64,000 nucleotides of DNA. It comes from Candidatus Omnitrophica bacterium UBA6249. GTDB taxonomy: Bacteria; Omnitrophota; Gorgyraeia; Gygaellales; Profunditerraquicolaceae. A model generated the notes under the pieces. It was not told the origin of the DNA, ran no database searches, and saw nothing but the letters and a program-made list of their open reading frames with translations. Where the stretch lies: contig DJVT01000009.1 of NCBI GenBank assembly GCA_002441305.1, positions 345,210-409,209 of the forward strand, in the 5' to 3' direction. Shown here in pieces: positions 35,163 to 64,000 of the stretch (position 1 is its first letter; every line of letters starts with the position of its first letter). Both the position numbers and the translations under genes were made by a program.

Positions 35163-36349
35163 TACCGGCCCCTCAATCTATTGGAAATCTCTCTCTGTAA
35201 ATCAAGAATGCGTTTATGCCTGTCTTCCTTTTCTTCCTGGGTAAGGGAATCGGCCAGTTTAGAAGACTGCGTATTCGGCCTGGGGGAATATTTGAATATA
35301 TATGAAGCGTTAAACCCGACGTTCTTGAGCAAGGCACAGGTCTCCTGGAAATCCCCCTCTGTTTCTGTGGGGAAACCTACGATAATATCCGTAGTCAATG
35401 TACCCCCTGTAACGATTCTACGATAAGAGTCGGTTAAAGCCAAGTACTCTTTTACGGAGTACCCGCGGTTCATAAGCTTGAGTATCCTGTCCGAACCGGA
35501 TTGCACCGGAAGATGCAGGGATTTCTCCAGCTTCTCCAGGTCCCTGATGGCGCGGAAAAATTCTTCATTGGCGTCTTTAGGGTGGGAGGTGAAAAAATTA
35601 AAACTCTCCAGCCCTTCCAGCGCGTTTACCTCTTCAAGAAGCCCCCTGAAACCGGAATCCCCCTGGCAATAAGCGTTTACATTCTGCCCCAGGAGGGTAA
35701 TCCTGGATATACCCGAACCCAATGCCCGGAGGATCTCCTCTATAACGCTGGACTGCGCGCGGTGGCGCAATGGCCCGCGCACATACGGAACAATACAATA
35801 CGAACAAAAATTTGAACAGCCCTCGGAAATAACCACGTAAGCATGACTCTTGTCCGCGCGGAAAGAAGTATGATAGACCTCATCCGGCCTCTCCTTGGCC
35901 GCAGTCTCCCAGACCTTCCGCTGGAATAACCCCTCATCCTGGCTCTGTCCTAAAGCAAGAAGCCGGTCAAGAATCGAGGGTATTTTGCCGATATCCTGCG
36001 GCCCCACCACAAAAGAAATCGCCGGGTCGCGCTGGAACGCCTTGTCTTGATAATTCTGCGCCATGCACCCGGCCAACCCGATAATCTTACTGCCTTTATA
36101 ACTCCCGATCAGGCTCCAGACACGGTCCTCGGCATGCTTGCGTACGGAGCAAGTATTAAAGATCACGACATCGGCGTCTTGATCGGAATCACAGACCCGG
36201 TAACCGGCACCCTGGAGAAGCCCGCAGATAATCTCGGAATCCCGGACATTCATCTGGCATCCGAAGGTACGCAAAAGCACACGTAGCTTCTTCGGGCTTT
36301 TGCCTCCGGAATCGCCTGTATTGTCGTCTTTTCGTTCGTTTTCAACCAT
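35162..36349 (-). CDS. miaB: tRNA-i6A37 methylthiotransferase MiaB. The 5' end (36278-36349) is supplied by the integrated element.
   Basis: 395 aa with the UPF0004 domain LRTFGCQMN, the radical-SAM CSNFCSYC motif and a TRAM C-terminus. The first 24 codons lie to the element side of the 20-bp att core and overlap the integrase 3' end in another frame. Confidence 0.85.
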   Translation of the reverse strand: MVENERKDDNTGDSGGKSPKKLRVLLRTFGCQMNVRDSEIICGLLQGAGYRVCDSDQDADVVIFNTCSVRKHAEDRVWSLIGSYKGSKIIGLAGCMAQNYQDKAFQRDPAISFVVGPQDIGKIPSILDRLLALGQSQDEGLFQRKVWETAAKERPDEVYHTSFRADKSHAYVVISEGCSNFCSYCIVPYVRGPLRHRAQSSVIEEILRALGSGISRITLLGQNVNAYCQGDSGFRGLLEEVNALEGLESFNFFTSHPKDANEEFFRAIRDLEKLEKSLHLPVQSGSDRILKLMNRGYSVKEYLALTDSYRRIVTGGTLTTDIIVGFPTETEGDFQETCALLKNVGFNASYIFKYSPRPNTQSSKLADSLTQEEKEDRHKRILDLQREISNRLRGR

Positions 36350-37935
36350 TTCATCCCCTCTTCATAGCAAGTCTTCCAAGGCTCATTCAACTCAAACTTC
36401 ACGATTTCCTGATTCTGGATAGTAATCGACTTAAAGACAATCCGCATGAACGTCTTTATAAGGTAGTCCAATTGGTGATTGTCGCTTTCGGGCGTACTGC
36501 GCAACCTTAAAAGGAAATCCTGCGTCGCTTTCACCAAATTGACGGAATTGCGCTTGTCCAGAATCTTAAGATGAATGGCCTTGATATCCTGCTTTAGTTT
36601 TTTCTCCTCATTACTTAAAAGCTCGGCTCTGTCCTTATAAAGCCCCATATTTATTTTGTCTTCTGAAAATAATTCGTATATAGCCCTTTGCTTCTCCACG
36701 TTCTTTTTAAGAAGCGCTTCCTTCTCCTCCAACTGCTCCATATATACCCGCTCCGGCTCAGAAGCGTTAAGCCGAATCATGTCGCCTAATTCTTCCAGCA
36801 CGTGAAGATTTTTTCTAATAACTTCAACGATATCCCAGACCTGCTTATTGATAGCATCAGCAGTCACGGATTTATTGTTGCACTTAATATACCGAATCCC
36901 TCTAGACGAACATCTATACCACGGACGCCTCATTTTGGTGCGGTGATTAACGATATGCGTCATCCCGCGATAATTACCGCCGCATTCATTGCATTTTAAT
37001 ATACCGGAAAGATGATAAACATTATTCCTGAATCTAACTATGCCATTAGTGCGGTTTCGCTTGAGAAGCGTGGAAGCCTCGTCAAACTCCCTTTGCGAAA
37101 TAATCGGCTCGTGCGTATTCGGGACCTCGATGATCTTGGAAGGATCATTCTTGATATAGCAATATCCCTTTCCCTCGCCATTTTTAGTCTTGATCTTTGT
37201 ATCGTAACGCCGCTTATTCCAGACCAGCATTCCCAAATACACTTTATTTTTAAGGATATCCGAGATGAATTTAGTATAAAACTTCCCGCCCTGCCGCGAA
37301 GGGATACCAAGCATGTAATAATGCCCGGCAATCTGCGAAGTGCTCTTGCCATTTATATACATCGAGAAAATTTCTTTGACGATTTTCGCTTCTTCAGGGT
37401 GGACTTCCAGTTTCTTGGCTTCCTTATTATAACGATAGCCATACGGCGCGTAACGCGCTCCCTGCCAATGCCCCCGCTTAACACCTACAACCATACCCGG
37501 AAAAACGCGCTCAACTAAACGATTACGCTCAAATTCCGCGCAACTGCCAAGCATTTGAATCGCCATTTTGCCCGCGCTCGATGTAGTATCAAACGGCTCA
37601 GTCGCTGATTTATAGCCAACACCCAAAGAATCAATCTCCTCAAGCAATCCTAACAGATCCTTGAGCCGACGACTTAAGCGATCTTGTTTATACACCAAGA
37701 CCAAATCAAACTGCTTATTGCGGGCATCGAAGAGAAGCCTCTGTAATGCCGGTCTATCCATATTGCCGCCGGAATAGCCGTCATCCATATAAACATCCCG
37801 GCCCGACATACTGCAAAAAACATCCCAGCCGAAGTTCTTCGCATATTGCAAAAGATACGTTCTCTGCACCTCCAGCGAAAATCCTTCGCGAGCTTGATCC
37901 TCTGTGCTAACTCTTGTGTATAACGCTACCCTCAT
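36250..37935 (-). CDS. Large serine recombinase (integrase 1)
   Basis: 561 aa with the resolvase catalytic domain ALYTRVSTEDQ, a recombinase domain, the zinc ribbon CNECGGNY...CSSRGIRYIKC and a coiled coil. Its last codons cross the att core. Confidence 0.9.
   Translation of the reverse strand: MRVALYTRVSTEDQAREGFSLEVQRTYLLQYAKNFGWDVFCSMSGRDVYMDDGYSGGNMDRPALQRLLFDARNKQFDLVLVYKQDRLSRRLKDLLGLLEEIDSLGVGYKSATEPFDTTSSAGKMAIQMLGSCAEFERNRLVERVFPGMVVGVKRGHWQGARYAPYGYRYNKEAKKLEVHPEEAKIVKEIFSMYINGKSTSQIAGHYYMLGIPSRQGGKFYTKFISDILKNKVYLGMLVWNKRRYDTKIKTKNGEGKGYCYIKNDPSKIIEVPNTHEPIISQREFDEASTLLKRNRTNGIVRFRNNVYHLSGILKCNECGGNYRGMTHIVNHRTKMRRPWYRCSSRGIRYIKCNNKSVTADAINKQVWDIVEVIRKNLHVLEELGDMIRLNASEPERVYMEQLEEKEALLKKNVEKQRAIYELFSEDKINMGLYKDRAELLSNEEKKLKQDIKAIHLKILDKRNSVNLVKATQDFLLRLRSTPESDNHQLDYLIKTFMRIVFKSITIQNQEIVKFELNEPWKTCYEEGMKWLKTNEKTTIQAIPEAKARRSYVCFCVPSDAR
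36258..36277. repeat. att core copy 1 (CATCCGAAGGTACGCAAAAG), the junction between miaB and element 1
   Basis: Identical 20-mer to 54295-54314. It lies inside miaB codons LLRTFGC and inside the last codons of integrase 1. Confidence 0.8.
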
Positions 37936-38113
37936 TAGTATCCTTTAGTGTCTCCCGCCATTCTTTAATCTTGGCGATACACTCGTCCGTAAACACGGGC
38001 CAGTCTTTGTAGTCGCGCTTGGGCTTAACCCAACCCTTGCGGATCCAATTGATCATGGTCTGCCGGTGAACACCCAGCTTTTTTGCCGTCTCTGTCATGG
38101 TGTAAGTTTTCAT
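37907..38113 (-). CDS. Excisionase-type (MerR-like, HTH_17) DNA-binding protein, a candidate recombination directionality factor
   Basis: MKTYTMTETAKKLGVHRQTMINWIRKGW...; 51 of 58 aligned residues are identical to the element 2 copy. Its 3' end overlaps the integrase start by 29 nt. Confidence 0.65.
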   Translation of the reverse strand: MKTYTMTETAKKLGVHRQTMINWIRKGWVKPKRDYKDWPVFTDECIAKIKEWRETLKDTNEGSVIHKS

Positions 38114-38139
38114 AATTGGCACCCTCTAAGATTAGTGCC

Positions 38140-38168
38140 CAGTATACCGTATTATACAACCCTATACA
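38140..38168 (-). promoter_or_regulatory. Promoter candidate for xis-int (conserved in both elements)
   Basis: The minus strand reads TTGTAT (38168-38163), a 17-nt spacer, then TATACT (38145-38140), with an internal TATAAT. The same block recurs near 56705-56735 in element 2. Confidence 0.4.
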
Positions 38169-38365
38169 AGGGTTTTCTTCTCCGCGTCATACGAGGACAG
38201 GAACATTTTTGACAACAACTCAATGCCTTCAAAAAAGGATTTACGCGCCTCCTGAATCTCAATGCTGGATAGGCCGCGGCCTTTTAGCTTTATCTCTAAA
38301 GCATCCCAGCCCCTAAGGCTAACCGCCTGATCATTATTTGTGCGTACATCCTTGCTCATTTTCAC
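38162..38365 (-). CDS. Conserved small element protein, unknown function
   Basis: 67 aa. SLRGWDALEIKLKGRGLSSIEIQEARKSFFEGIELLSKMF aligns with the element 2 ORF at 56734-56928. Confidence 0.55.
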   Translation of the reverse strand: MKMSKDVRTNNDQAVSLRGWDALEIKLKGRGLSSIEIQEARKSFFEGIELLSKMFLSSYDAEKKTLV

Positions 38366-38373
38366 CGCTACCC

Positions 38374-38456
38374 ATTAGGACATTAGGACATTTTTCGTGT
38401 CGTATGATGTCCGGTTTCACTGACATACTGACATAACTCGTGTCAGTGAATGTCAG
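38374..38456. repeat. Short-word arrays upstream of the small ORF (operator/iteron-like)
   Basis: ATTAGGAC occurs twice in tandem (38374-38391). CTGACAT occurs twice (38420, 38428), followed by inverted TGTCAG twice (38441, 38451). Confidence 0.6.
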
Positions 38457-38600
38457 TCAAAACACCCCTCAAAACCATCGAAATACCCCAAAATTGACAC
38501 TTTTTCCGCAAAGAATGCCTGTTTTGAGCCTTCCTGACCACATTTTGACGCTCTCCGGATAACCCCATATGACATGACATCACTTTTTCAAAATTTTAGA

Positions 38601-38712
38601 TCACTGACAAACTGCGCCTCGCCCGACCCTCACCCGACACCGGCTGCCAAGGACCCGTAAACAAAATGCGTGCGGAGGAGGGCGGAAGGTGTCGCCCTCT
38701 GCCAGACGCATT
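38601..38712. repeat. Conserved GC-rich motif copy 1 plus adjacent hairpin
   Basis: TCACTGACA..GCGCCTCGCCCGACCCTC..AAGGACCC (38601-38656), with an invariant 18-mer at 38614-38631. A hairpin AATGCGT...ACGCATT follows at 38665-38712. Confidence 0.8.
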
Positions 38713-38781
38713 TATCTGGCAAAACTTTCGCGATGGAAGAAGTTAACAAGAACATCGATCCGGTTCCTCCGCATTAGATTG

Positions 38782-39465
38782 TTACTCAGCAACCAACTCT
38801 ACCTGCTCCACTGGCTTTGCGGGCTCAGGCCGATATTTTTTCATAAGGTTATTAATCTCCTGCTCGAGGTCGAAATGCGATACCCAGTGATCCCTGACAC
38901 GGATATCCTCCTCGATATCTGCCGTTGTCGGCCTGCGAAGCTCGGCGATACCCTTTTCTTTCTCAGCATGAAAAATACTGTGCGGCTCTGTTCCTAAACT
39001 GGGGCTAAACGCGGGGTAATCTTCCAAATGCCGTCGGGTAGTCTCTGGATGACCGTAGATAGCAAATGCTAAGGCAAACAACCGGCCCTTCGCCTTCCAC
39101 AGATCGAGGATCAACGTCTCCTTCTCTCTGTTCATGGCTTTACGGTCTTCGATGAGCCTTTTCATCTCTTCGTCCCGCTTCTCCGTCAACGCTTCCTCCA
39201 TTTTCGTCTTGAGTTTAGCGAGGCTCTCGGCAACGACATCGAGATTGATATTGCATTCCTCCAACGCCAAATCCGCTAGCTTCACAGCCTCGGGATTAAT
39301 CCTCTCGCCGCACATAACCCGGCTTCTGATTTCTTTTGCTTTCTCTTTAGCTTCAGTTTTTTCCTGCTCGCAGAGCTTCTGCTTTTCTTCAAGCGCCACA
39401 ATCTGCTCGGCGATCTCTTCCGGCGTGCTTTTGCCCTTTAACACGTTTAAAAAATTCAGTTTCAT
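38782..39465 (-). CDS. Coiled-coil hypothetical protein (variable slot of element 1)
   Basis: 227 aa, charged and helical. I recognise no motif. It occupies the position held by the Nu1-like gene in element 2. Confidence 0.5.
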   Translation of the reverse strand: MKLNFLNVLKGKSTPEEIAEQIVALEEKQKLCEQEKTEAKEKAKEIRSRVMCGERINPEAVKLADLALEECNINLDVVAESLAKLKTKMEEALTEKRDEEMKRLIEDRKAMNREKETLILDLWKAKGRLFALAFAIYGHPETTRRHLEDYPAFSPSLGTEPHSIFHAEKEKGIAELRRPTTADIEEDIRVRDHWVSHFDLEQEINNLMKKYRPEPAKPVEQVELVAE

Positions 39466-39772: not shown

Positions 39773-42136
39773 TTAATACGGCCTTGGATCGTCTTCATCA
39801 CAAAAATCCTTTCCTTGTTCACCTTCATTCACGCCTTCGTTCACACTGCCTTTAAAAAGCGAATTACCCTTTATCCTGCGTAAGATAACCAGCTTCCTGC
39901 CGGTACCGGCTTCACGCTTTTCCGGACGTAAAATATCAATGCCCACACTGCGCATAACCGGAGCGATGCGCATAAGCTCTGAACCAAGTGCCCGGGCGTT
40001 GCCGGGTAGCGTCTTATCAAAACCGGTTTCCGGCTTAATGCTCTCAAGCAGTGTGGTCGCAGAACCCGCCCACTCGCCTCCGTTTGACTCCACAAGATAG
40101 ACCAACTTTTGCGCGAATGTGCTCTCTTCTGCGGTGTCCTCCCATTTATGATCAACCGATTGCTGATACCGCTTAAAAAATTCCTCCCGGGAGAATCCCA
40201 AATGCTGTGACAACGCCGCACCCCACTGCGCGAAATCCGACATCCTAAAACGCTCATGCCCGGACACACCGTCAATAACTGCCATTGCGTTTGAAATTGC
40301 CGAAAAGAAACCGCCGAGAATACCGGGAAGCGAAGCCCGCCATTCGTAAGCGATGACTTTCTCCGGCCTTGTCTCTTTTAAGATTGGTATATCGAAGATA
40401 ACTGAACGGTCTAATAGATCCGGACGGCATATAGCACTGCCGATACCGTTTAAAACGAAACATCGGCGATAGGTCCTGATGAATTCCTCATCATTGGTGT
40501 AAAGCGATCGCTTCATATCTCCCTCGCCTGTTACTGCCCGGCATAAAAAATCACTGAACCACTCAGACACGCGAGAAAAATTGTCGAAATTATTCAACCA
40601 GTGTTTATCCGCGATCATCTGCGCCTGCTCTAAATCCTTAGGCACAGAAATGGACATCACCTTGGAAGGATCGCACAGGCTTTTAATCATCCGGGAGTTG
40701 TTAGACTTTCCTGTTCCCTGCTCGCCTATCTGCACTGGTATGACATGAGGAATATCGGGAATAAAGAAAGTCGCTACCGCCGTCATGAATAGACAAGCGT
40801 CATCTTTATTGATATTGCAAAACTCCAAAAGCTTTTTAGGATCAGAGCCCTTGACCGGAAAAACCTGCTCTGCCTGATGGGGGTATCGCTTGAATATTGG
40901 AGGCAGGAAAACAACTTCCCATCCATCTTTAGTAATAATGACCCCGCGCCAGTCTTGAGTGGTCAGGTCATAATAAATAGCCCCGTTATGCCAACCGACA
41001 CGGTTATATAGCTCAACCTGCCTTCCGCCTTCGCACTTCGCCTCAATCTGAACTTTCGCCTGCTTTATAGCTTCGCTCCCGGGCGGATGGCCGAAGTCCT
41101 GCCGGTAACGCAGAGCGCAGTAATTCCTGAAGCGGGAACTGCTTGTCTGGCAAACCTCAAGATGTTTATCAAACGGAAGAACAACGTAAGGATTACCTTG
41201 TTGGTCGCGCAGATATTCGCTAACCGTTTCTTCACAGTCACGGGTGATAATTTCGCCTTGGGTAAGTTTCTTCTGCTTCGGAGATGTTGACGCCTCAAAT
41301 ACATTTTCGGTGTCTTGGACGGCCTTCTGAATAACGCTTTGCCCGTAAGTCTTGCCGTCACCAAAATGTTTCTCATCCCACTTCGGCCGCATAAGCCCCG
41401 ACTGCCGGAACAACGCATCCATCTGCCCGGCGTCTTTGCTTGTCCAAAACGCCAGCTTGTTGCACAACGCCAGATCCGCCTCACTTTGAGAGGGATAATC
41501 GGTCTGCCACTGGCCCGAATAAAGCCGCTGAAACCTCTCCGCGTCTTTACTCTTGGCGATCAAGGTAAGAATGTCGTCTGCGGGCCCTTTATCCACAAAC
41601 CGGCTGAATATATCTTTAAGCGCATCAGTGCACTCGTTAAGCTCAGCCGGATAATTTTCAAGGCGGTTGCCGGTAACGGTAAAGAATCGGCCATTGGTAT
41701 AAATCTCCAAGCCGATCTTGGAAATTTTGCAGGCCCGGGCGATCTCGCCTTTACAAAGGATATGAATACCTGTGCCGCTTGGCGAATATTCGGAATATGA
41801 ATTAATCGCCTTGAGAATCTCAACCGCATACGGCGCGATTGATCCGTCTTTGACGCAGTGGTCAATATCCACGCCCACATACGGCGGCTGAAACATAAAG
41901 CCAATGCCCGCGTAGTTACGCTGAATCGCCAAATCTAAAGCCATTTCAAAATCAGTCCATGTTGCAGGATCGTTGCTTTTCGCAGGCGCGCCGGTCATAA
42001 CATTCATCGGAATCTTGTCAACACGGCCATTGTTCTCTCTGGTGACATAACCCACCCACGCCTTTTGAGACCTAATCTCGGCGGGAATAATTGAAGGCAT
42101 CTTGTTAAAATCTATCATTGCTGTTTGCATCGCCAC
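39773..42136 (-). CDS. Prim-Pol (AEP) primase fused to a DUF3987-like P-loop helicase
   Basis: 787 aa with the N-terminal AEP motifs VGVDIDHC and SPSGTGIHIL, and the PriCT-like block YPSQSEADLALCNKLAFWT...LFRQSGLMRPKW. The Walker A motif is GEQGTGKS. Confidence 0.8.
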   Translation of the reverse strand: MAMQTAMIDFNKMPSIIPAEIRSQKAWVGYVTRENNGRVDKIPMNVMTGAPAKSNDPATWTDFEMALDLAIQRNYAGIGFMFQPPYVGVDIDHCVKDGSIAPYAVEILKAINSYSEYSPSGTGIHILCKGEIARACKISKIGLEIYTNGRFFTVTGNRLENYPAELNECTDALKDIFSRFVDKGPADDILTLIAKSKDAERFQRLYSGQWQTDYPSQSEADLALCNKLAFWTSKDAGQMDALFRQSGLMRPKWDEKHFGDGKTYGQSVIQKAVQDTENVFEASTSPKQKKLTQGEIITRDCEETVSEYLRDQQGNPYVVLPFDKHLEVCQTSSSRFRNYCALRYRQDFGHPPGSEAIKQAKVQIEAKCEGGRQVELYNRVGWHNGAIYYDLTTQDWRGVIITKDGWEVVFLPPIFKRYPHQAEQVFPVKGSDPKKLLEFCNINKDDACLFMTAVATFFIPDIPHVIPVQIGEQGTGKSNNSRMIKSLCDPSKVMSISVPKDLEQAQMIADKHWLNNFDNFSRVSEWFSDFLCRAVTGEGDMKRSLYTNDEEFIRTYRRCFVLNGIGSAICRPDLLDRSVIFDIPILKETRPEKVIAYEWRASLPGILGGFFSAISNAMAVIDGVSGHERFRMSDFAQWGAALSQHLGFSREEFFKRYQQSVDHKWEDTAEESTFAQKLVYLVESNGGEWAGSATTLLESIKPETGFDKTLPGNARALGSELMRIAPVMRSVGIDILRPEKREAGTGRKLVILRRIKGNSLFKGSVNEGVNEGEQGKDFCDEDDPRPY

Positions 42137-42351: not shown

Positions 42352-42460
42352 GTGATATCCTCCTCGCGAATTTCTTTTCTACTTGGAGTTTATCACTGGA
42401 AAAATCATGCCTTCCCAGCTTTACCCAAATTTGCTCAAATTTTTACATTGATTGTGCGTA

Positions 42461-56693: not shown

Positions 56694-56733
56694 GTGCCGT
56701 TCATTGAAGGCCAGTATACCTCATTATACAACC

Positions 56734-57532: not shown

Positions 57533-57687
57533 ACTGAAATCCTCCGTTTCAAAATTTGCAGGTTATTAACCCCTGATTCAGACCTTAAAATCTTTAAATA
57601 CTCCTTTTTCTATAGGGAAAATACACTTCTCCCTTGCTTCGCCGCTTCAATCTTATTGAACATGCAACCTAAAAATTGAAGTTAATA

Positions 57688-57790
57688 TCACTGACAGACC
57701 GCGCCTCGCCCGACCCTCGGCAAACCCCCGTGGTAAGGACCCATTGTTTAAAAGATGCCGGAGTTACATGTAGTCGCAAGACTACACTCC
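57688..57790. repeat. Conserved GC-rich motif copy 3 plus adjacent hairpin
   Basis: TCACTGACAGACCGCGCCTCGCCCGACCCTCGG..GTAAGGACCC (57688-57742). A hairpin GGAGT..GTAGTC-GCAA-GACTAC-ACTCC follows at 57760-57790. Confidence 0.8.
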
Positions 57791-57899
57791 TGCCCTCAGG
57801 CGACGGAAAACGCGCGTCCACCCAGAATCCCGGTTTCCATTTCTTCTTTTTCTTTTTTCTATACCAGTTGTAGTAATACATTTCTTATTCTCCCTTTCC

Positions 57900-58035
57900 G
57901 TCATGCGCCGAATGACAGAAATGACAACTTTTCCCACACTTATTTATTTTTTCTTTCCTGCTTTCATCCCCTTCCACTCCTCCATCCCTAAACACAATTA
58001 ATGAATATTCCTGTCATTCTTGTCATAGTTGTCAT
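57900..58035. repeat. Inverted iteron clusters flanking an AT-rich spacer at the primase 2 stop (origin candidate)
   Basis: ATGACA occurs at 57912 and 57921. The inverted word TGTCAT occurs at 58012, 58021 and 58030. All recur at a 9-bp period and are separated by about 85 bp of T-rich DNA. Confidence 0.5.
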
Positions 58036-60176
58036 TAATAAGGCCGTCCGGAAATATCCACTTCACCCTCTCTGCGAAGCCGAATGCCTTTCCACGTCCT
58101 CGCGGAACTACACCTTCCTTTATTAACCGAATCATATTGCCGGATTAATTCACGGCCGAAAGTGATCTTGCTAAGCGGCCGATACCCGCTATCCAGACAC
58201 CAGTTGTTATATGCCTGATACAGATCATCCTTGCTGATATCATCATGCGCATCGAGAACACACATCTCCTCGACAAAGATGATCACGTTATTGTTCTCCT
58301 TGCGATACTCATCTTTTACGTTAAGCATTGAGGCGCTTTCCTCAAAATATCCACGATCCCTTAACCTCTTCAGTCCGTTAAGCGCCCACAAGAAAATGCC
58401 ATCAAGCTCACTTGAAGCGATCTTGTATTTAAGTTTATGATCACGTTCTTCTTTATTGAATTGACGGTTAAAAGGCAGGATTAAAAGACGGCGGTAATAC
58501 CCTTCGCTCTTATCACCCACGCGCGGCATATTGTTTGTCGAAAATAGAAGCTTGCAGTAAGGCTTAAACTGAAAAGGCTGTCCATACTTCTCATCAGCCG
58601 AAATCGTATCGCCGGTAACGATGGCCTTGAACATATTGTCATAGACATTCGTCTTAGCATTGGTCTCAAGGCTGATATTGACCAGCTTGTCCCGAAGCCG
58701 GGCGATATAGTGCGAATCATTAAACTTCTCAAGCGCGATCGATGAACAATTTTCTTTGCCGATAAGCTCCTCAAGCACATACAAAACAACACTCTTGCCG
58801 TTCGCTCCCTCGCCAAATAAAAAGAGTGCCTTCTCATAATCATTTTCCCGCGTCAGGCAATACCCGAAAAATTCCTGCAGTAACTCAATACGCTCCGCGT
58901 CATTTTCAAATATCTGATCCAGACTCTTTTTCCATACCGGACAGTCGGCATCATCCTGATACGTCACATTAAGCTGATTAATGGAATACACATCCGCTGA
59001 ATGCGGAACAAGCCGCATATTATCAATGTCATAAAGCCCGTTTTTGACATTCAGAAAAGAAACACCATTAATAATGTCCGGCTTAATAAATGTCTCGGTC
59101 TTTAACGCCACAAGCACATTGCGAAGCCTGCTTGCCGAAAACATCGCCCCGCAAACATCCTTGATCCATTTCTGCACCTCTTCGATAAAAAGCGACCGGT
59201 AACAACCGCTTTGGTATTCATAATATGTATCCGCGAAATTAATCAGCCTGTGCTTCTCAAGAATGGCGTCCGCCACTTCATTGGAGTTTATCTTCTTAGG
59301 TGTATATTCTGATGAATTGCCCGCGCTGTAAACATCACGGCAACCGGCAATAGCTTTAGCGATAGTATCCGCACCGTACGTCCTGCCGTCACTGAAATGC
59401 GCTTCATCCCATTTCGGCCGCATAAGACCCGATGAACGAAACACAAGATCCATAAGCCCGGCATCTTTACCTGTCCAGAACGCCAGCTTATTGCAAAGCG
59501 CCAGATCCGCTTCACTTTGCGAAGGATAATCCGCATGCCAATTCCCTTCATACAGCCGGAAAAACGCGTCCTTATCTTTACTTCTCTTGACCCTGTTCAA
59601 AATCGTCTTAACGCTCTTGCCCTGTTTCTCTGTTCCCTGAACCTCCGCGAAAACCCGATTCAATTCATCCTTACGAGTCTCAATGGAGCTCTTGCCCGCA
59701 ATAATCCGTCCGGTGATCGTAAAAAACCGGTTTTTCGAATACATCTCAACATTACAAGAGCTGAACTTGCGTTCACGCGCGATCTCACCCTTACAGATAA
59801 TATGTGCGCCCTTGCCGCCGGGAGAATATTCCGTATAACTGTTTAATGTGGAAATAATCGTTCGGGCGAGTGATGACATACCGTCGTCAGTCATGCAACT
59901 GTCTATATCAATCCCGACATACGGCGAAGTGATGGCAAACCCTATCGCGTCCAAATTAAGCGCCTCAACTCGCTCCAATAACTCATCAAACGAACACCAT
60001 GTGCTTGAATCATTACACTTGGCAGGCCCGCCGGTTTTGATATTTATAGGAACTTTCTTCGGCTTTTTCCTGGGTTGAGGCAGAAATTTAAATCCAACCC
60101 AGATAGAAAGGTCTTTTAACTCTTGAGGGATATTATCAATATCCCACCTTTTCTCTTTTCTTCTCTCTTCGTTCAT
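58035..60176 (-). CDS. Prim-Pol (AEP) primase fused to a P4/D5-type SF3 helicase
   Basis: The N-terminal half is homologous to primase 1 (VGIDIDSC, SPGGKGAHII, YPSQSEADLALCNKLAFWTGKDAG...). The C-terminal half is of the P4-family type, with FLFGEGANGKS. I place the start at MNEERRKEKRW (60176), 4 nt after the upstream stop. Confidence 0.8.
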   Translation of the reverse strand: MNEERRKEKRWDIDNIPQELKDLSIWVGFKFLPQPRKKPKKVPINIKTGGPAKCNDSSTWCSFDELLERVEALNLDAIGFAITSPYVGIDIDSCMTDDGMSSLARTIISTLNSYTEYSPGGKGAHIICKGEIARERKFSSCNVEMYSKNRFFTITGRIIAGKSSIETRKDELNRVFAEVQGTEKQGKSVKTILNRVKRSKDKDAFFRLYEGNWHADYPSQSEADLALCNKLAFWTGKDAGLMDLVFRSSGLMRPKWDEAHFSDGRTYGADTIAKAIAGCRDVYSAGNSSEYTPKKINSNEVADAILEKHRLINFADTYYEYQSGCYRSLFIEEVQKWIKDVCGAMFSASRLRNVLVALKTETFIKPDIINGVSFLNVKNGLYDIDNMRLVPHSADVYSINQLNVTYQDDADCPVWKKSLDQIFENDAERIELLQEFFGYCLTRENDYEKALFLFGEGANGKSVVLYVLEELIGKENCSSIALEKFNDSHYIARLRDKLVNISLETNAKTNVYDNMFKAIVTGDTISADEKYGQPFQFKPYCKLLFSTNNMPRVGDKSEGYYRRLLILPFNRQFNKEERDHKLKYKIASSELDGIFLWALNGLKRLRDRGYFEESASMLNVKDEYRKENNNVIIFVEEMCVLDAHDDISKDDLYQAYNNWCLDSGYRPLSKITFGRELIRQYDSVNKGRCSSARTWKGIRLRREGEVDISGRPY

Positions 60177-60180
60177 TTCT

Positions 60181-60411
60181 CTACACTCCGTTTTGAAATA
60201 AAAAGTCTTTAACTTTGCGGTAGCACTGAAAAAGTTCTTCTTCTTTAGAATTATTAAAAAACTTATCCGCGAGCTTCTTCGCCTTCTCGCAATCCTCGAA
60301 TAGAACACGCTTTTGACGGCCGTAACCCGAAAGCGCCTTCATCACACAACCCTTCTGAACTAAATACGCGGCCAGATATATGTTTCCCGCTTCAAAATAC
60401 TTCTCTTCCAT
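60181..60411 (-). CDS. Small protein upstream of primase 2 (possibly DUF5659-like)
   Basis: 76 aa reading MEEKYFEAGNIYLAAYLVQKGCVM.... It occupies the slot held by the AlpA-like gene in element 1 but is not homologous to it. Confidence 0.4.
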   Translation of the reverse strand: MEEKYFEAGNIYLAAYLVQKGCVMKALSGYGRQKRVLFEDCEKAKKLADKFFNNSKEEELFQCYRKVKDFLFQNGV

Positions 60412-60544
60412 TGTTCTCTACTCCCCACTATAGGTATTACGTTTTTGGCTTCAGAATTTCGCTTCTATTTTGAGTTTATCAGAAGAAAAAATGAGCCTTC
60501 CCGGTTTTACCCAAGATTGCCCAATTTTTATCAAAGACTAAGCA

Positions 60545-60583
60545 TAAAAAAATGGAGACAGCCCAATGAAGGACCATCTCCAT
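60545..60583 (-). terminator. Rho-independent terminator after the 204-aa gene
   Basis: The minus strand has the stem ATGGAGA / TCTCCAT followed by TTTTTTTA. It is positionally equivalent to 42461-42488. Confidence 0.6.
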
Positions 60584-60632
60584 AAAAGAAATTATTCAGA
60601 TTTTTTTGCTATTTAGGAATAAAAGGAATCAA

Positions 60633-61244
60633 TCAGAAGGAAGAATCTTTGTCATCCGAAGCGGGAAGTTCTTCGCAGGCGATCTGCCATTTAGTGCCGA
60701 CTTGGCGGGCTAGGATCTGGTTATTCTTAAGCCAGCTCTGCATGGTTTTGCGGCTTATATTGAAAACTTCAGCCCAATGAGTTATTGAGTGAGGATTTGA
60801 CCACCCGCTTCGAGGAATCAATTTTGGTCTGGTCTTAAACTCCGAAGATAATATTCTATTCCTTGCCCCCATAATACGGTGCATCATATCAATGTCCATA
60901 TCTCTCGTCTTTTCACACCACTCGTTATAACCGCCGGGAACCCACGATGGGAACTCGGGTATAACCGGCGTCTCATTAGGCCCGAATAAAAACTCCAAAA
61001 TAGGTATAGCCGCCTGATTAGCTTCCTGATGAATCTTTGCTAAATCAGGCTGTTTTACTTTATGCTTCTTGAGTGTTTTCTCAAACTTATTAAACACATC
61101 ATCTTTTGTCAGCCAATCATAGTGATCGGTCGATGAAAGTCCAAGGCGGTCAATAGCCAGCACCCACTCACTGGCGGCTTTTTGGTATGCCATCCACTTC
61201 TTGGCAAATTCCGACACACAATCAAGTTTACTTTTCATTTTCAT
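60633..61244 (-). CDS. Conserved 204-aa element protein with C-terminal excisionase-type HTH (element 2 copy)
   Basis: It aligns end to end with 42523-43134. I chose the start MKMKSKLD (61244) by homology instead of the 240-aa ORF-track start. It overlaps the stop of the giant ORF by 17 nt. Confidence 0.7.
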   Translation of the reverse strand: MKMKSKLDCVSEFAKKWMAYQKAASEWVLAIDRLGLSSTDHYDWLTKDDVFNKFEKTLKKHKVKQPDLAKIHQEANQAAIPILEFLFGPNETPVIPEFPSWVPGGYNEWCEKTRDMDIDMMHRIMGARNRILSSEFKTRPKLIPRSGWSNPHSITHWAEVFNISRKTMQSWLKNNQILARQVGTKWQIACEELPASDDKDSSF

Positions 61245-64000
61245 TATGAAATTCTTCCCATACAGGCTTGAGGAAATGAACCCCGCGCCTTCCATATGTC
61301 GAACAAATAAAATCAGCGTCCTTTGCGTCACCTTTAGTAAATATTCTTCGAACAATTAGCTCTACATCTTCTTGTCTAAACGTAGGCGTCATATTTTCTA
61401 AGATTTTTTTAAAAATACGTCCTATGCGTAGAACACTTTCATCATCATCGTATTGCGCCAAGTATTCAATAAAAAAAGTAGATCTATGCTGTCGATCGAC
61501 ATGAGGCGCGCTCAAAAGCAGCCATTTTTCTTCTTCTTCACCAATTCTATCTAAAATAATTGTCAATTCTGCCATCCTGCCAAGAAAATCCTCATATTCG
61601 TCCTTAAGGTTATCTTTTACAATATCTGGGTTATTAAACGTCCAGCGCCAGAATTCCAAGATTTTATTCTTATGATCTTCCGGAAGTTCTTCTTTTGAAT
61701 CCTTATCTGCATCTTTTTTACGTTTAGTCCGTCCAGTAATAGACCAAAAAAATCCGGCTATTTCCATCCAGCGATCAGGTTTACCTAGTTTTCCAGCATC
61801 CATTAAAACCTTCCAAAACAAACTCTCATCTCCGTCATCATTCTTTTCGCTTAGAGATTCTCCCAAGTTTAAATAGCCTACACAAATATGCTCAACAAGC
61901 CGTTTATCGACACGATCATCAAACACATTACAAGATATGCCTTTTTTATAATTTTCTCTCATGAGATCATATAAATCCTTATAGACCCGCGCACCTGTTA
62001 AATAACCCTCCATGAACATTTGCCATTGAAAATCAAAAACAGTTTGCTTGGAAAAATAATTTATCTTTGCCTTTGCGTAATCAGCATCTAAATAATTAAT
62101 TTGAGGCAAATAAGACCCCATCCAAATATAGCCGTCTATACCTATGGGCAGAAAACGTTCAAATTTATCATTACCCCAGTTTTCCTGCTTTTTCTGGGTA
62201 GCCCTTGCCACCCTCAAGGAAAATGAAAGATAATTCATAACTGTTCTTCCAAGCGTAGTATTTAATACATACGTCAATGCGTCACGTTGCGTATCCGGCT
62301 GAGCCTCACCTTTTAGAAACGGTATTATCAGATCAAAAACTTTCTCAGCTTGATCAAAATATTTAGCATCAAAGGCACGTTTATCATCCTTAGAGCCATC
62401 TGCAATCAAGTCTGATAGGCTCTCGATAATCCATAAATAACGACCTTTACCGCTATCCTCTCCTTGAGCAGAAAGGGCTTCTTTAATAATTAACTCTTTT
62501 CCCCTGCTTAAATAAGTAATACAAAAAGCAAAATATTTCTCCCAAGCTATATCTTTCCCCTCATTCCAAGCGTCTTTGATTCCCCGAATGATTCTGTGTA
62601 AGTAAAAATAATCTATGTCGATACATTGTTGCAAAGCATCCATAAATTTATCAGGTTCATCTTTTACCGTAGACTGCAAAACATCAGCTAATCCTTCTTT
62701 ATCCGGCTCTCCTTCAAATGTCCCATGCCAAAAATCGGCCCCTTTGAATTCATTCAAATACTTAATAATTTCAGCAACGGGCATCTTCAATATTTCTTCT
62801 TTTGAAAGGGGAGATTTATGTGTTACAAAGCCACCCTTAAATGTCGAACGCTCAGGCATATAATCTTTCCCATCCTTCGGGGCGGCCTTATCTTTAGCTT
62901 CTTCATACAAGGAAACAAAGTCTTCATTATCCTTGAGGGGAGAAAGCCATTTAAATTTCCAGTAAAAGGTAAGTTTTTCTCCCTCTTTTAAGTAATATTC
63001 AGGAACGGCATTAATAAAGACCTTTATCCTGCTCTTGATTTCATCATCAAATTCTGAATTATGATGAAGTAGAACATCATATAATTCGACTTCCAGATCA
63101 GACTCCTCTAAAACATTTGGTATCAGTTCGAATAGTTTCTTTAAAAGATGATGACAATCTTCCCAATACATATCAACACATAGAAGAATAAACCTTTCAA
63201 ATATAGGAAAATCGTATTTAGGCTCCAGAAATAATTCCAGAATCTCCTTTGCCTCTGCAATATCATTTTCACATTTAGATAGCAAAATCTTCTTGAAGAT
63301 AGTCGTTAAAACTTCTTCTGCGCTACTGGCGTGATCGCTTACGCCATTAGCCAAAGAACGACACCATATATGCGAATAATCAGAAAATAGACCTTCATAA
63401 ATCCCCTCAATCTTTTTAATGAATTTTGCATCTTTTTCCCAATCTACCCCATCAGGTAGGTTTTCCTTAATTCTGTCAAACATCTCTTTCTTATCAGATG
63501 ACTCAAGCTCAAAGCTTTTTATTATGTCGTTTGGAGCTTCTTTATGAAGCGCCCAGAAATCAGCTTCCCGATTTGTCTTCTTTAATTGATCTTCGGTGTA
63601 TTTGCTTATTACACAAGAATAAAAATTGTCTTTAAATCCTAAGGGACGCGATTCATCTTCTATCCTTCCGACCCAAATTCTATAAACCTCGTTCTCTGAT
63701 ATTTCAATAGTGGCATAATAATTTTTCTGCTTAAATTGTAATGCTAACCTGAGCTGATCTGCTATCCCAAGTAAAACTTTAGAAGAACACTTCTTGCCAA
63801 TTTCATCACCATGTTTATTGAAAGCTTGGTTTATCCAGTAGGCATCCCACTCCATTCTCGCATCTTCTCGCTTGGTTATTCCCCGAACATTGCCCCCCGA
63901 TTTGATTTGCGTTATCGCATCTATAATAATATTTGCGTATTCGTAGTCAGGCCCGTAATCATCATTAAGAAATTTTGGCAATAATTTTTCGCCTATATCG
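61228..64000 (-). CDS. Large orphan protein of more than 917 aa, mostly alpha-helical. The reading frame is still open at the window edge.
   Basis: It is a long uninterrupted ORF in visibly AT-rich DNA. The track start at 63981 is a TTG, and the 19 nt upstream to position 64000 contain no in-frame stop. I found no Walker A or other recognisable catalytic motif in the visible part. Confidence 0.7.
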   Translation of the reverse strand, partial: DIGEKLLPKFLNDDYGPDYEYANIIIDAITQIKSGGNVRGITKREDARMEWDAYWINQAFNKHGDEIGKKCSSKVLLGIADQLRLALQFKQKNYYATIEISENEVYRIWVGRIEDESRPLGFKDNFYSCVISKYTEDQLKKTNREADFWALHKEAPNDIIKSFELESSDKKEMFDRIKENLPDGVDWEKDAKFIKKIEGIYEGLFSDYSHIWCRSLANGVSDHASSAEEVLTTIFKKILLSKCENDIAEAKEILELFLEPKYDFPIFERFILLCVDMYWEDCHHLLKKLFELIPNVLEESDLEVELYDVLLHHNSEFDDEIKSRIKVFINAVPEYYLKEGEKLTFYWKFKWLSPLKDNEDFVSLYEEAKDKAAPKDGKDYMPERSTFKGGFVTHKSPLSKEEILKMPVAEIIKYLNEFKGADFWHGTFEGEPDKEGLADVLQSTVKDEPDKFMDALQQCIDIDYFYLHRIIRGIKDAWNEGKDIAWEKYFAFCITYLSRGKELIIKEALSAQGEDSGKGRYLWIIESLSDLIADGSKDDKRAFDAKYFDQAEKVFDLIIPFLKGEAQPDTQRDALTYVLNTTLGRTVMNYLSFSLRVARATQKKQENWGNDKFERFLPIGIDGYIWMGSYLPQINYLDADYAKAKINYFSKQTVFDFQWQMFMEGYLTGARVYKDLYDLMRENYKKGISCNVFDDRVDKRLVEHICVGYLNLGESLSEKNDDGDESLFWKVLMDAGKLGKPDRWMEIAGFFWSITGRTKRKKDADKDSKEELPEDHKNKILEFWRWTFNNPDIVKDNLKDEYEDFLGRMAELTIILDRIGEEEEKWLLLSAPHVDRQHRSTFFIEYLAQYDDDESVLRIGRIFKKILENMTPTFRQEDVELIVRRIFTKGDAKDADFICSTYGRRGVHFLKPVWEEFHNENEK

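What the first reader, a model, noticed from the sequence alone, without database searches (positions are those of the whole stretch)
36250..64000. Two related integrative elements inserted in tandem into the 5' coding end of miaB, delimited by an identical 20-bp repeat
CATCCGAAGGTACGCAAAAG occurs at 36258-36277 and again at 54295-54314, a 20/20 match. The sequence on the low-coordinate side of the two copies is unrelated. Copy 1 lies inside the MiaB codons LLRTFGC. Immediately to the high-coordinate side of each copy is the 3' end of a large serine recombinase gene. The same gene order then follows in both: Xis-like HTH, small ORF, variable gene, Prim-Pol/helicase, small HTH, and a 203/204-aa HTH protein. 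The repeat-to-repeat distance is 18,037 bp. Left of 36258 the DNA is housekeeping, and right of it the DNA is accessory. The simplest reading is that element 1 and element 2 both used the same attB in miaB and now form a tandem array. A third repeat copy and the original miaB 5' end should then lie beyond position 64000.
Basis: partly seen in the sequence, partly recalled or inferred. Interest (0 to 1): 0.85.

Follow-up and report, generated by a model that had tools for sequence, protein, structure and literature searches.

The report
Tandem serine-recombinase islands inserted in miaB
Two (probably three) mobile islands sit head-to-tail inside the start of the tRNA-modification gene miaB of an Omnitrophota bacterium; each was inserted by a serine recombinase whose own gene tail also encodes a replacement start for miaB, so the host gene is probably still expressed.

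Summary
The 20-mer is real at both coordinates, and the tandem-island reading holds, with one correction of mechanism. The window is part of a 473.7-kb Omnitrophota contig. E1 (18,037 bp, window 36260-54294) and E2 (about 24.1 kb, from 54297 to beyond the window) each end in a large serine recombinase (LSR) gene.

Independent contigs break synteny exactly at the 20-mer. E2 directly abuts a different host's miaB. The E1 left arm is fused to ten different native miaB starts.

The variable base in GGN-TG places the crossover at TG, the first two bases of the Cys codon in MiaB's GCQMN motif. The 20-mer is therefore 18 nt of element-borne attP arm plus that TG. It is not a duplicated target.

The predicted third copy is only 12/20 identical. 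It sits about 14.4 kb past the window as an orphan miaB start. A second orphan start with a TATAAT box lies 1,090 bp further out, beyond a recombinase-less DUF2971 module.

Across the family (Omnitrophota, Elusimicrobia, Margulisiibacteriota) the LSR gene spans attP. Its stop codon comes from miaB's ATGAAY. In another frame it carries a ribosome-binding site, an ATG and a substitute MiaB N-terminus. The closest analogues are SCC/Ccr cassettes and dusA islands.

The parts
35162..36257 (-). Host miaB body (B' arm onward), from the third base of the Cys codon of GCQMN to the stop codon
   Evidence: NCBIfam TIGR00089 MiaB/RimO scores 372 bits against a cut-off of 251. The MiaB equivalog scores 341.5 against 355.3, and no TRAM domain is found. 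An identical protein body occurs in public assemblies with three different N-termini.
36233..36284 (-). attR (P1 arm - TG - B' arm). The crossover dinucleotide TG is at 36259-36258. The extent of about 50 bp is inferred.
   Evidence: The E1 recombinase, 100% identical in protein, with an identical 45-nt P arm is joined to different B' arms in L008 and L089-L092.
36258..36277 (.). 20-mer copy 1 (18 nt of P1 arm plus crossover TG)
36260..36360 (-). E1-encoded replacement miaB 5' end: SD GAGGGG (36360-36355), ATG (36349-36347), then MVENERKDDNTGDSGGKSPKKLRVLLRTFG. It overlaps the rec1 3' end in another reading frame.
   Evidence: The ATG is retained in 23 of the 25 distinct junctions tabulated, most of them preceded by a purine-rich SD-like stretch.
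36250..37935 (-). rec1, large serine recombinase of E1 (561 aa). Its last 2 codons and the stop (GCC AGA TGA) are host miaB DNA.
   Evidence: Pfam Resolvase, Recombinase and Zn_ribbon_recom domains; family C-termini; best NCBIfam hit CcrB at 196 bits against a cut-off of 900.
37907..38122 (-). E1 excisionase-like HTH (candidate directionality factor)
   Evidence: Pfam HTH_17 and MerR_1; PHROG excisionase families, E about 1e-5.
38162..39465 (-). E1 small ORF (38162-38365) and variable 227-aa gene (38782-39465), function unknown
   Evidence: no family hits
39773..42136 (-). E1 primase-polymerase (NrS-1 polymerase HBD)
   Evidence: Pfam PF22763, E=1e-30; PHROG DNA primase, E=2e-84.
42115..43134 (-). 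E1 small HTH (42115-42351) and 203-aa HTH protein (42523-43134)
   Evidence: These are homologous to E2 60454-61238 at 74% DNA identity.
43671..46415 (-). E1 defence and regulation cargo: DpnI-like endonuclease, YhcG/DUF1016 nuclease, LexA-like S24 repressor
   Evidence: The same genes lie next to the core module in L002 and L088.
46912..54175 (-). E1 physiological cargo: GreA-like, P-II-like, response regulators, DUF5698/DUF2179, PhoU-like, histidine kinase, OmpR-type regulator, Na+/H+ antiporter
   Evidence: This stretch is 98-99.8% identical in contigs whose left flank is another host's miaB start.
54270..54321 (-). Internal attP-like junction (P2 arm - TG - P'1 arm). TG is at 54296-54295. 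P'1 is GCCGTTGTCTACCTTATAG...
   Evidence: L096 breaks away exactly here. P'1 is fused to ten B arms. Dyad CCTTCGGA-TG-GCCGATGG is seen by eye in the E2 attP reconstructed from the P2 and P'2 arms; it was not scored statistically.
54295..54314 (.). 20-mer copy 2
54276..54420 (-). E2 replacement miaB 5' ORF, unused in this array: SD AAGGAG, ATG 54410-54408, MSNKERNDAKKGEEKHRGNRAEGEGSPKGKRILLRTFG, then WPLSTL* read from P'1
   Evidence: In L096 the same ORF is fused in frame to CQMNVR... of a miaB gene.
54230..56110 (-). rec2, large serine recombinase of E2, in its long (P-P') form with the tail GRCLPYRHSMADLAEALIGAD. It contains an in-frame 88-nt hairpin insert at 54425-54512.
   Evidence: The 607-aa short form ending SDVK* occurs in L096.
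56138..57881 (-). E2 excisionase-like HTH, GIY-YIG protein, small ORFs, and a 208-aa protein resembling a terminase small subunit
   Evidence: PHROG phrog_57, E=2e-20.
58035..61244 (-). E2 primase-polymerase/D5-type helicase, DUF5659 protein, 203-aa HTH protein
61228..64000 (-). 3' part of the E2 1072-aa protein gene, which runs off the window. Beyond the window E2 continues with SIR2_2, type I R-M, AbiEii/DUF6088, a hybrid-cluster protein and other genes, reaching its left junction at window-equivalent 78,385.

Best explanation
The region is an array of site-specific integrative islands built at one attB inside the first codons of miaB.

Each autonomous island (E1, 18.0 kb; E2, 24.1 kb) carries a large serine recombinase gene at its miaB-proximal end. 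The island's attP, about 50 bp, spans the last codons of that gene. Recombination exchanges strands at the dinucleotide TG, the first two bases of the Cys codon in MiaB's T-F/Y-G-C-Q-M-N motif.

Integration has three consequences. First, the native promoter and the first 7-20 codons of miaB are moved to the far end of the island. Second, the island's P arm supplies a ribosome-binding site, an ATG and 22-40 codons ending ...LLRTFG, in frame with the remaining gene, so a chimeric full-length MiaB can still be made. Third, the recombinase ORF, read one base out of frame through the same DNA, now ends three codons after the crossover at a TGA made from miaB's ATG-AAY. In a P-P' junction (free circle or internal array junction) it instead runs on for 7-40 more codons.

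The P arm mimics a native miaB start over about 20 nt next to the crossover. Each attR therefore looks like a fresh attB, so further islands can land there and arrays build up.

Shown here: the junction anatomy, the crossover position, the independent mobility of E1 and E2, the orphan miaB starts, and the family-wide dual coding.

Inferred: catalysis by these recombinases, function of the chimeric MiaB, co-transcription with the recombinase gene, the order of insertion, and the role of the excisionase-like HTH as directionality factor.
For: The 20-mer occurs at both sites. The LSR domain architecture and the invariant R-V-S-T-E-D-Q active-site block are present.

About 100 of the 120 listed homologues end in [DAVG][AV][RK]*. 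This is the +1-frame reading of GGN TGY CAR ATG AAY. In the genome scan, 23 of the 24 family loci tabulated, from three phyla and down to 40% identity, have the recombinase 3' end within about 250 nt of GGNTGYCARATGAA, and it abuts the motif directly in most. The 24th (L029) lies next to a GCKVNQYE sequence.

E1's recombinase, 100% identical in protein and with an identical 45-nt P arm, sits next to a different host's miaB, in a miaB-NadA neighbourhood. E2 is 100% identical up to 54295 and then continues into another host's miaB.

The P'1 arm plus E1 cargo is fused to ten distinct native miaB starts, with N of GGN-TG varying by host. An eleventh contig has a different LSR tail instead.

The outer junctions were found in the Logan contig that is 100% identical to the window over their 13.4-kb overlap: MENKTVKKNTVFLRSFG|P'2, and 1,090 bp further out MVKERVYIRTFGCQM|P'3 with a TATAAT box. 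The HsdR and DUF2971 proteins of that stretch are also on record on a 473,718-bp contig, the length of the window's source contig.

An SD and ATG in the miaB frame are kept in 23 of the 25 distinct junctions tabulated. The same MiaB body carries three different island-encoded N-termini in public assemblies. The P arms match the B-arm consensus T..TT.T....AC.T..GG.TG. G+C drops across the boundary.
Against: No empty attB and no circular junction was recovered. Reconstructed empty-site MiaB proteins and five predicted circle-form recombinases are absent from the exact-match collection.

Canonical LSRs do not recombine attP with attL or attR, so array growth needs either the attB-mimicry proposed here or relaxed, Ccr-like site choice. 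Neither was tested.

The left end was read from near-identical contigs, not from the window's own record.

No sigma-70-type promoter was detected in the last 650 nt of rec1, so how the rebuilt miaB is expressed remains unproven.

The DNA upstream of the outermost miaB remnant has G+C of 0.40-0.46, below the 0.50 of the housekeeping side. The array could therefore extend further, or border another variable region.
Confidence: 0.85

Rival explanations
1. E2 plus E1 (plus E3) is a single composite island that moves or is inherited only as a unit. On this view the second recombinase and the internal junction are relics, not evidence of two separate insertions.
For: The E2-to-antiporter junction is identical in three assemblies (window/ENA, Logan SRR5323233_16, JGI 3300001592). 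The MENK arm stays attached to E2 even in the contig where E2 abuts a different miaB, so joint movement of E3 and E2 is plausible.
Against: E2 occurs without E1, directly on a miaB (L096). The E1 right end occurs on other hosts' miaB genes, and the E1 left end is fused to ten different native miaB starts with no E2. Both recombinase ORFs are intact.
Confidence: 0.06
2. The array grew at the distal end (a new island recombining with attL), or by integration of a pre-formed multimeric or composite circle, rather than by insertion into the attB-like attR next to miaB.
For: The final arrangement is the same for either order, so the sequence alone cannot decide. The evidence that E3 and E2 travel together shows that composite circles probably exist.
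Against: attR keeps both a B-like left half (the P arm matches the B-arm consensus) and the true B' half. attL carries a P' half. The most decayed module (E3, no recombinase) is the most distal from miaB, as expected if new arrivals land next to the gene. A closely related host strain carries an E2-like N-terminus directly on the same MiaB (P0242).
Confidence: 0.3
3. The 20-mer is merely a conserved piece of recombinase coding sequence, the true island boundaries lie elsewhere, and the antiporter/two-component block is ordinary chromosome.
For: Seven exact matches of 20 nt or more exist between the homologous parts of E1 and E2. Near-variants of the 20-mer are conserved in the closest relatives.
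Against: Two independent sets of contigs break synteny exactly at the end of the 20-mer. The block 43-54 kb has G+C of 0.36-0.44 against 0.50 for the chromosome. The same block is found, nearly identical, next to ten different host sequences.
Confidence: 0.03
4. The E2|E1 junction is an assembly chimera that joins an integrated E1 to an episomal or differently located E2.
For: In one public MAG (L008), the contig carrying the identical recombinase on a different host's miaB ends 696 nt upstream of the recombinase gene. Several short contigs also start or stop at junctions. Both observations show that assemblers struggle at these sites.
Against: The same junction appears in three assemblies made with different pipelines, at 99.9-100% identity. 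The shared exact repeat is only 20 nt, below the usual k-mer sizes.
Confidence: 0.03

Closest known systems
SCC/SCCmec cassette chromosome elements and their Ccr large serine recombinases (also the Enterococcus cassette chromosome)
   Same: Both use an LSR to insert islands at one site in the end of a conserved housekeeping RNA-modification gene while keeping that gene intact. Both form head-to-tail composite arrays that can include recombinase-less cassettes, and both carry defence and adaptive cargo. CcrB and CcrC are the best-scoring curated models for rec1 (E=1e-57 and 4e-46). The SCC biology is from my own knowledge and from the abstracts listed.
   Different: The score is far below the Ccr cut-off (196 against 900 bits), so rec1 is not a Ccr orthologue. 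The target is the 5' end of miaB, not the 3' end of rlmH. There is one recombinase per island. The recombinase gene itself spans attP and doubles as the donor of the target gene's new start. The hosts are uncultivated Omnitrophota, Elusimicrobia and Margulisiibacteriota.
dusA-specific genomic islands and prophages (DAI integrases; Farrugia et al. 2015, PMC4482086)
   Same: These islands integrate in the 5' end of a tRNA-modification gene and replace that 5' end with island-supplied sequence, leaving an orphan 5' remnant.
   Different: Those integrases are tyrosine recombinases with a longer shared core. Here the enzyme is a serine recombinase with a 2-bp crossover, and the replacement 5' end is dual-coded with the recombinase C-terminus.
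attP-inside-a-gene systems: SSV-type archaeal integrases (PMC7253208) and integration-dependent immunity of mycobacteriophages (the latter from my own knowledge)
   Same: The attachment site lies inside an element ORF, so the product differs between the free and the integrated state.
   Different: SSV-type integrases are tyrosine recombinases whose gene is split in two. Here only a short C-terminal tail is exchanged, and the catalytic and DNA-binding domains stay intact. No state-dependent function has been shown.
Tandem integrative-element arrays, and the 'attP fragment' strategy for preserving target genes (Mageeney et al. 2020, PMC7192596)
   Same: That work describes the general principles seen here: arrays form because integration regenerates a usable site, and islands restore the interrupted gene.
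   Different: It is described mainly for tRNA genes and tyrosine integrases with duplicated cores. For an LSR, the only true duplication is 2 bp, so arrays here need mimicry of the B arm by the P arm.
Serine-integrase prophage in rimO of Variovorax boronicumulans J1 (PMC9658991, Table 2)
   Same: A serine recombinase targets a MiaB-family methylthiotransferase gene.
   Different: The paralogue, the reported repeat (GTCGCCGGTCTTGGCG) and the host phylum all differ. No relationship to this family was tested.

Membership tests
Large serine recombinases (serine integrases) | N-terminal resolvase catalytic domain with the nucleophilic serine in a conserved Y-x-R-x-S-x-x-x-Q block | tested here: met
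   Pfam Resolvase hits, E=8e-34 and 1e-34. Y6 T7 R8 V9 S10 T11 E12 D13 Q14 are invariant across 13 family members.
Large serine recombinases (serine integrases) | C-terminal recombinase domain plus a zinc-ribbon domain (with an embedded coiled coil) | tested here: met
   Pfam Recombinase and Zn_ribbon_recom hits in both proteins. Full-length matches to the SPbeta integrase structures. The coiled coil itself was not modelled.
Large serine recombinases (serine integrases) | Short att sites of about 40-50 bp that share little beyond a 2-bp central crossover | tested here: met
   Comparative junction mapping gives TG as the only invariant shared dinucleotide between the B and P partners. N of GGN-TG follows the host. 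Rough dyad symmetry around TG in attP was seen by eye.
Large serine recombinases (serine integrases) | Catalyses attP x attB integration, with excision requiring a directionality factor | not testable with these tools
   An excisionase-like HTH gene lies directly upstream of each recombinase gene. This is a lead only.
SCC-type cassette chromosome elements (Ccr recombinases) | Recombinase is a CcrA, CcrB or CcrC orthologue | tested here: not met
   NCBIfam CcrB scores 195.8 bits against a cut-off of 900, and CcrC 157.7 against 900.
SCC-type cassette chromosome elements (Ccr recombinases) | Integration at the 3' end of rlmH (orfX) | tested here: not met
   The target is the 5' end of miaB.
SCC-type cassette chromosome elements (Ccr recombinases) | Composite tandem arrays, including cassettes without a recombinase | tested here: inconclusive
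   The E2-E1 tandem is shown. E3 (1,090 bp, DUF2971 gene only) is bounded by junction-like sequences, and short contigs start and stop at those junctions. Its independent mobility was not shown.
dusA-type 5'-end-replacing islands | DAI-clade tyrosine integrase | tested here: not met
   The recombinase is of the serine type.
dusA-type 5'-end-replacing islands | The island replaces the 5' end of the target gene and leaves an orphan 5' remnant at the other end | tested here: met
Phage satellites of PICI type | Integrase, regulators, primase/replication module and packaging-redirection genes such as a small terminase, with no virion structural genes | tested here: inconclusive
   E2 has a primase/D5 helicase and a protein resembling a terminase small subunit (phrog_57, E=2e-20). 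E1 has no such hit. No helper phage or induction data exist. A related LSR sits on a phage-like IMG/VR contig.
MiaB (tRNA i6A37 methylthiotransferase), identity of the target gene | Passes the MiaB equivalog model and has the UPF0004, radical-SAM and TRAM domains | tested here: inconclusive
   The TIGR00089 MiaB/RimO subfamily model passes (372 bits against 251). The MiaB equivalog scores 341.5, just under its cut-off of 355.3, and no TRAM domain is present. miaA lies two genes downstream.

The most novel reading that the evidence does not exclude
The exchange of the recombinase C-terminus may be a built-in state sensor. The short form ends ...PSD-A-R when the island sits next to miaB. A 7-40-residue tail with a recurrent R/D-W...Y/L pattern is added in the free circle or at an internal array junction. 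The tail would alter recombinase activity, stability or directionality, so that only the miaB-proximal island or the free circle is competent. At the same time the island would take over transcription and translation initiation of an essential-pathway tRNA-modification gene. This would be a serine-recombinase counterpart of integration-dependent immunity.
Probability: 0.15. Interest if true: 0.8.

Novelty: new variant of a known kind. Interest (0 to 1): 0.6.

Why it matters
The finding defines a large, previously undescribed serine-integrase family, with 834 homologues at E<=1e-30 among the candidates scored. I found no paper in the held library describing it. Its attB is written in one of the most conserved short motifs in bacteria, the T-F/Y-G-C-Q-M-N start of MiaB-family enzymes. 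The family demonstrably tolerates many different left arms, with ten hosts seen for one island.

That is the profile wanted for broad-host-range, landing-pad-free genome integration in non-model bacteria. The attP, the attB consensus and the crossover dinucleotide are now predicted precisely enough to synthesise and test.

Biologically it shows how an LSR, which duplicates only 2 bp, can still preserve its target gene and still build arrays. It does both by dual-coding a mimic of the gene's start inside its own 3' end. It also identifies miaB as a hotspot for defence and physiological cargo (DpnI, type I R-M, SIR2, AbiE, antiporter, two-component systems) in Omnitrophota and neighbouring uncultivated phyla.

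Tried and rejected
- Exact look-ups of the window's 917-aa ORF and the 626-aa rec2 found nothing. The first runs off the window. The second is called from Met7 in the collection.
- A search for a third copy of the 20-mer with up to 4 mismatches in the 7.2 kb beyond the window found none. The outer junctions match only 12/20.
- A search for attL within 10 kb upstream of the 24 recombinase loci examined found none in Omnitrophota, because the islands are longer than 10 kb.
- Reconstructed empty-site MiaB proteins (MVKER... or MENK... joined to the body) are not in the collection.
- Five predicted circle or composite-circle recombinase forms are not in the collection. This is weak negative evidence only, because the look-up needs an exact full-length match.
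- Rfam searches of 35-64 kb gave no hits.
- The conserved 60-nt motif has no significant fold.
- No sigma-70 promoter or intrinsic terminator was found in the last 650 nt of rec1.
- I rejected the idea that the 20-mer is a duplicated target core, as in tyrosine-integrase islands, on the junction evidence.
- Literature searches for miaB as a serine-recombinase target, and for mobile elements of Omnitrophota, found no description of this family.

Full report
**Observation**

The 20-mer CATCCGAAGGTACGCAAAAG occurs exactly twice in the window, at 36258-36277 and 54295-54314, with none expected in shuffles. All genes here are on the minus strand.

On that strand, copy 1 reads CTT TTG CGT ACC TTC GGA TG. 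This is LLRTFG(C) of a MiaB/RimO-family ORF (35162-36349) and continues CCAGATGAAT, which is (C)QMN. Copy 2 continues GCCGTTGTCTACCTTATAG and runs into a Na+/H+ antiporter gene.

Both copies lie inside the 3' ends of large serine recombinase (LSR) ORFs: rec1 at 36250-37935 and rec2 at 54230-56110. Both carry Resolvase, Recombinase and Zn_ribbon_recom domains. It runs excisionase-like HTH, small ORF, variable gene, primase-polymerase, small HTH, then a 203-aa HTH protein. G+C falls from about 0.50 to 0.36-0.46 across 36 kb.

One caveat applies. The two elements are homologous at 72-76% DNA identity and share seven exact matches of 20 nt or more. The length of the repeat alone proves nothing; its position does.

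**Source**

rec1 is on record on ENA ERZ27315056 contig k141_274781 (473,718 bp). The window is positions 64573-128572 of that contig, reversed (L088, 100% identical over 21.7 kb). The organism is a Candidatus Omnitrophota bacterium.

**The recombinase gene spans the attachment site**

About 100 of the 120 best homologues end in ...[FY][CW]xP[ST]-[DAVG]-[AV]-[RK]-stop. This is what GGN TGY CAR ATG AAY (G-C-Q-M-N) gives when read one base out of frame: GNT is D/A/V/G, GYC is A/V, ARA is R/K, and TGA is stop. These genes are therefore caught in the integrated state, with their last codons and stop codon supplied by miaB.

A minority, including rec2, run on with tails such as GRWLRYRGTM....

In a scan of one genome per species, 23 of the 24 family loci tabulated have the recombinase 3' end within about 250 nt of GGNTGYCARATGAA, and it abuts the motif directly in most. 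These loci come from Omnitrophota, Elusimicrobia and Margulisiibacteriota and go down to 40% identity. The 24th (L029) lies next to LGCKVNQYE, which on my reading resembles an MtaB-type paralogue.

**E1 and E2 are separate mobile units that end at the 20-mer**

- E2 is 100% identical to window 64000..54295 in JGI contig Ga0378408_0005247 (L096). It then continues GGATG|TCAAATGAACGTCCGCGAT..., another host's miaB.
- The arm on the low side of copy 2 was searched for in metagenomes. It occurs in 11 contigs together with E1 cargo at 94-99.8% identity. The shortest contigs hold only 0.1-1.8 kb of that cargo, and L102 covers window 54305..46765. In ten of the 11 it is fused to a different native-looking miaB start, for example ATGAAAAAAATCTTTTTGATAACCTACGGA-TG or ATGAATAAGAAAATTTTTCTTCGAACTTTTGGC-TG. 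In the eleventh it is fused to another LSR tail.
- The E1 recombinase, 100% identical in protein and with an identical 45-nt P arm, also sits on a different host's miaB, in a miaB-NadA neighbourhood.

Hence E1 is window 36260-54294, which is 18,037 bp from TG to TG and includes the DpnI, YhcG and LexA-like genes and the 7-kb antiporter/two-component block.

**Crossover**

In the ten attL junctions, the base N of GGN-TG varies with the host (A, G, T or C), while TG and everything to its right are constant. The exchange therefore occurs at TG, the first two bases of the Cys codon.

Around TG, the attP shows rough dyad symmetry, seen by eye and not scored: CCTTCGGA-TG-GCCGATGG in the E2 attP reconstructed from its two arms. 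The P' arms of different islands are homologous, with TTATAG 13 nt after TG.

The 20-mer is thus 18 nt of element-borne P arm plus the 2-bp crossover. It is not a duplicated target.

**Beyond the window**

A look-up with the E2 203-aa protein, followed by walking with HsdR and then with a DUF2971 protein, recovered Logan contig SRR5323233_16. This contig is 100% identical to window 64000..50633. A 99.9% identical JGI contig was also recovered. HsdR and the DUF2971 protein are both also on record on a 473,718-bp contig, the length of the window's source contig.

E2 continues with a 1072-aa protein, SIR2_2, a type I R-M system, AbiEii/DUF6088, a hybrid-cluster protein, Rrf2, hemerythrin and a transpeptidase. 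It ends at ATGGAAAATAAGACAGTTAAAAAGAATACGGTGTTCCTGAGATCATTCGGT-TG|GCCGATGGCCGGGTTATAG, which is MENKTVKKNTVFLRSFG plus the P'2 arm. This junction is at window-equivalent 78,385, so E2 is 24,090 bp.

A second miaB start lies 1,090 bp further out, behind a TATAAT box: MVKERVYIRTFGCQM, followed by a P'-like arm. Only a DUF2971 gene lies between the two. Short contigs begin and end exactly at these two junctions. The MENK arm also stays with E2 in the contig where E2 abuts another host's miaB.

I read this 1,090-bp piece as a recombinase-less cassette (E3), with about 0.5 confidence. The total array is about 43.2 kb. Both outer arms match the 20-mer at only 12/20, so the predicted 'third copy' exists only in degenerate form.

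**Gene preservation**

In the miaB frame, 23 of the 25 distinct junctions tabulated keep an ATG inside the recombinase 3' end, most of them preceded by a purine-rich SD-like stretch (GAGGGG, GAAGGAG). The encoded 22-40 residues end in ...[LIV][LIV]xT[FY]G.

The identical MiaB body occurs in public assemblies with three different island-encoded N-termini. No promoter-like or terminator-like site is seen in the last 650 nt of rec1. I therefore infer co-transcription with the recombinase gene.

**How arrays form (inference)**

An LSR duplicates only 2 bp, and canonical LSRs do not use attL or attR as substrates. Here the P arm matches the consensus of the native B arms over the proximal about 20 nt (T..TT.T....AC.T..GG.TG), because it must encode the same peptide. 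attR (P-TG-B') is therefore a near-perfect attB.

On this model new islands land next to miaB, and the oldest, most decayed module (E3) ends up furthest away. The alternative orders cannot be excluded.

**What kind of elements**

No capsid or conjugation genes were seen. Both islands have a primase-polymerase, HTH regulators and an excisionase-like gene. E2 also has a protein resembling a terminase small subunit (phrog_57, E=2e-20). They may therefore be mobilisable islands or PICI-like satellites. A related LSR in P-P' form sits on a phage-like IMG/VR contig.

**Comparison with known systems**

The best curated matches of rec1 are CcrB and CcrC of SCC elements, but far below their cut-offs. 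Structurally solved relatives include the TP901-1 and SPbeta integrases.

In behaviour, the system resembles SCC cassettes: an LSR, the end of a housekeeping gene, and composite arrays. It also resembles dusA islands, which replace the 5' end of their target (PMC4482086). Tandem arrays and the 'attP fragment' strategy are general principles (PMC7192596).

Searches of the held library found no description of miaB-targeting LSR islands or of this family. A serine-integrase prophage in rimO of Variovorax is listed in PMC9658991.

**Limits**

No empty site or circle junction was found. Nothing was tested biochemically. The left end comes from near-identical contigs rather than the window's own record. 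The DNA outside the outermost miaB remnant has lower G+C than the housekeeping side.

Noticed in passing
L109:1286-2413 (window-equivalent about 78,385-79,510, beyond the window): A 1,090-bp module holding only a DUF2971 gene lies between an outer miaB 5' remnant (MVKERVYIRTFGCQM, TATAAT box) and the E2 left junction (MENKTVKKNTVFLRSFG). Short contigs L117 and L118 start or stop exactly at its ends. It may be a recombinase-less cassette mobilised in trans.
   Followed up: partly
L030:9480-11625 and L031:90-2230: In two Elusimicrobia family members, a perfect inverted copy of at least 50 nt of the P arm plus core lies about 2 kb upstream on the opposite strand. The two copies bracket the recombinase gene. 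This looks like an invertible segment at the miaB start rather than an insertion.
   Followed up: no
window 54425-54512: An in-frame 88-nt hairpin-forming insert (-39.1 kcal/mol, z=-3.8) lies in the rec2 C-terminal linker and translates to HSEPKAKNL...EILRSACGLPQDD. Close relatives carry other variants (RFRGND, LRMTEGKPLRMAE). It is probably a REP/MITE-like palindromic repeat, and it accounts for the stretches of 65 nt (E1) and 191 nt (E2) that do not align.
   Followed up: partly
window 38592-38656, 46687-46742 and 57679-57742: A conserved motif of about 60 nt (GGGTCCTTGG...GAGGGTCGGGCGAGGCGC...CAGTGAT) occurs twice in E1 and once in E2. The E1 copies lie between the long ORFs; the E2 copy overlaps a 70-aa ORF of unknown status. 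It has no Rfam match and no significant fold. It could be an operator or a replication origin.
   Followed up: partly
window 56906-57532: The E2 208-aa HTH protein matches terminase small subunit phrog_57 (E=2e-20), which hints that E2 is a phage satellite. E1 has an unrelated 227-aa gene of unknown function at the same position.
   Followed up: partly
window 35162-36349: The target MiaB is short (395 aa) and lacks a detectable TRAM domain. It scores just under the MiaB equivalog cut-off (341.5 against 355.3). The next gene starts at its stop codon. miaA lies two genes downstream.
   Followed up: no
P0242, P0243, P0244/P0246 (cluster of the window's MiaB): The same MiaB body occurs with three different island-encoded N-termini in public assemblies: MVENERK..., MSEKERNDAKKGEEKPQGKRILLRTFG and MQHIEKPGDSNKNTDRPRSVYIATYG. 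This shows turnover of the island next to miaB within one host lineage.
   Followed up: partly
L119 (IMGVR_UViG_3300029286_003022, 17.3 kb): A family recombinase (81% identical) in the long P-P' form is flanked on both sides by phage-like genes (internal virion protein, DnaD-like loader, a tyrosine integrase fragment). The family may therefore also serve temperate phages.
   Followed up: partly
L029:3970-4030: One family member lies next to a gene beginning ...KFLTLGCKVNQYETQG, which on my reading resembles an MtaB-type methylthiotransferase, instead of GCQMN. This suggests retargeting to a paralogue.
   Followed up: no
L111 versus L112, positions 1-1914: The DNA outside the outermost miaB remnant (ArsP, DsbD, SBF, methyltransferases) has G+C of 0.40-0.46. 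It differs between two otherwise near-identical contigs upstream of position 1914. It may be another variable region bordering the array.
   Followed up: no
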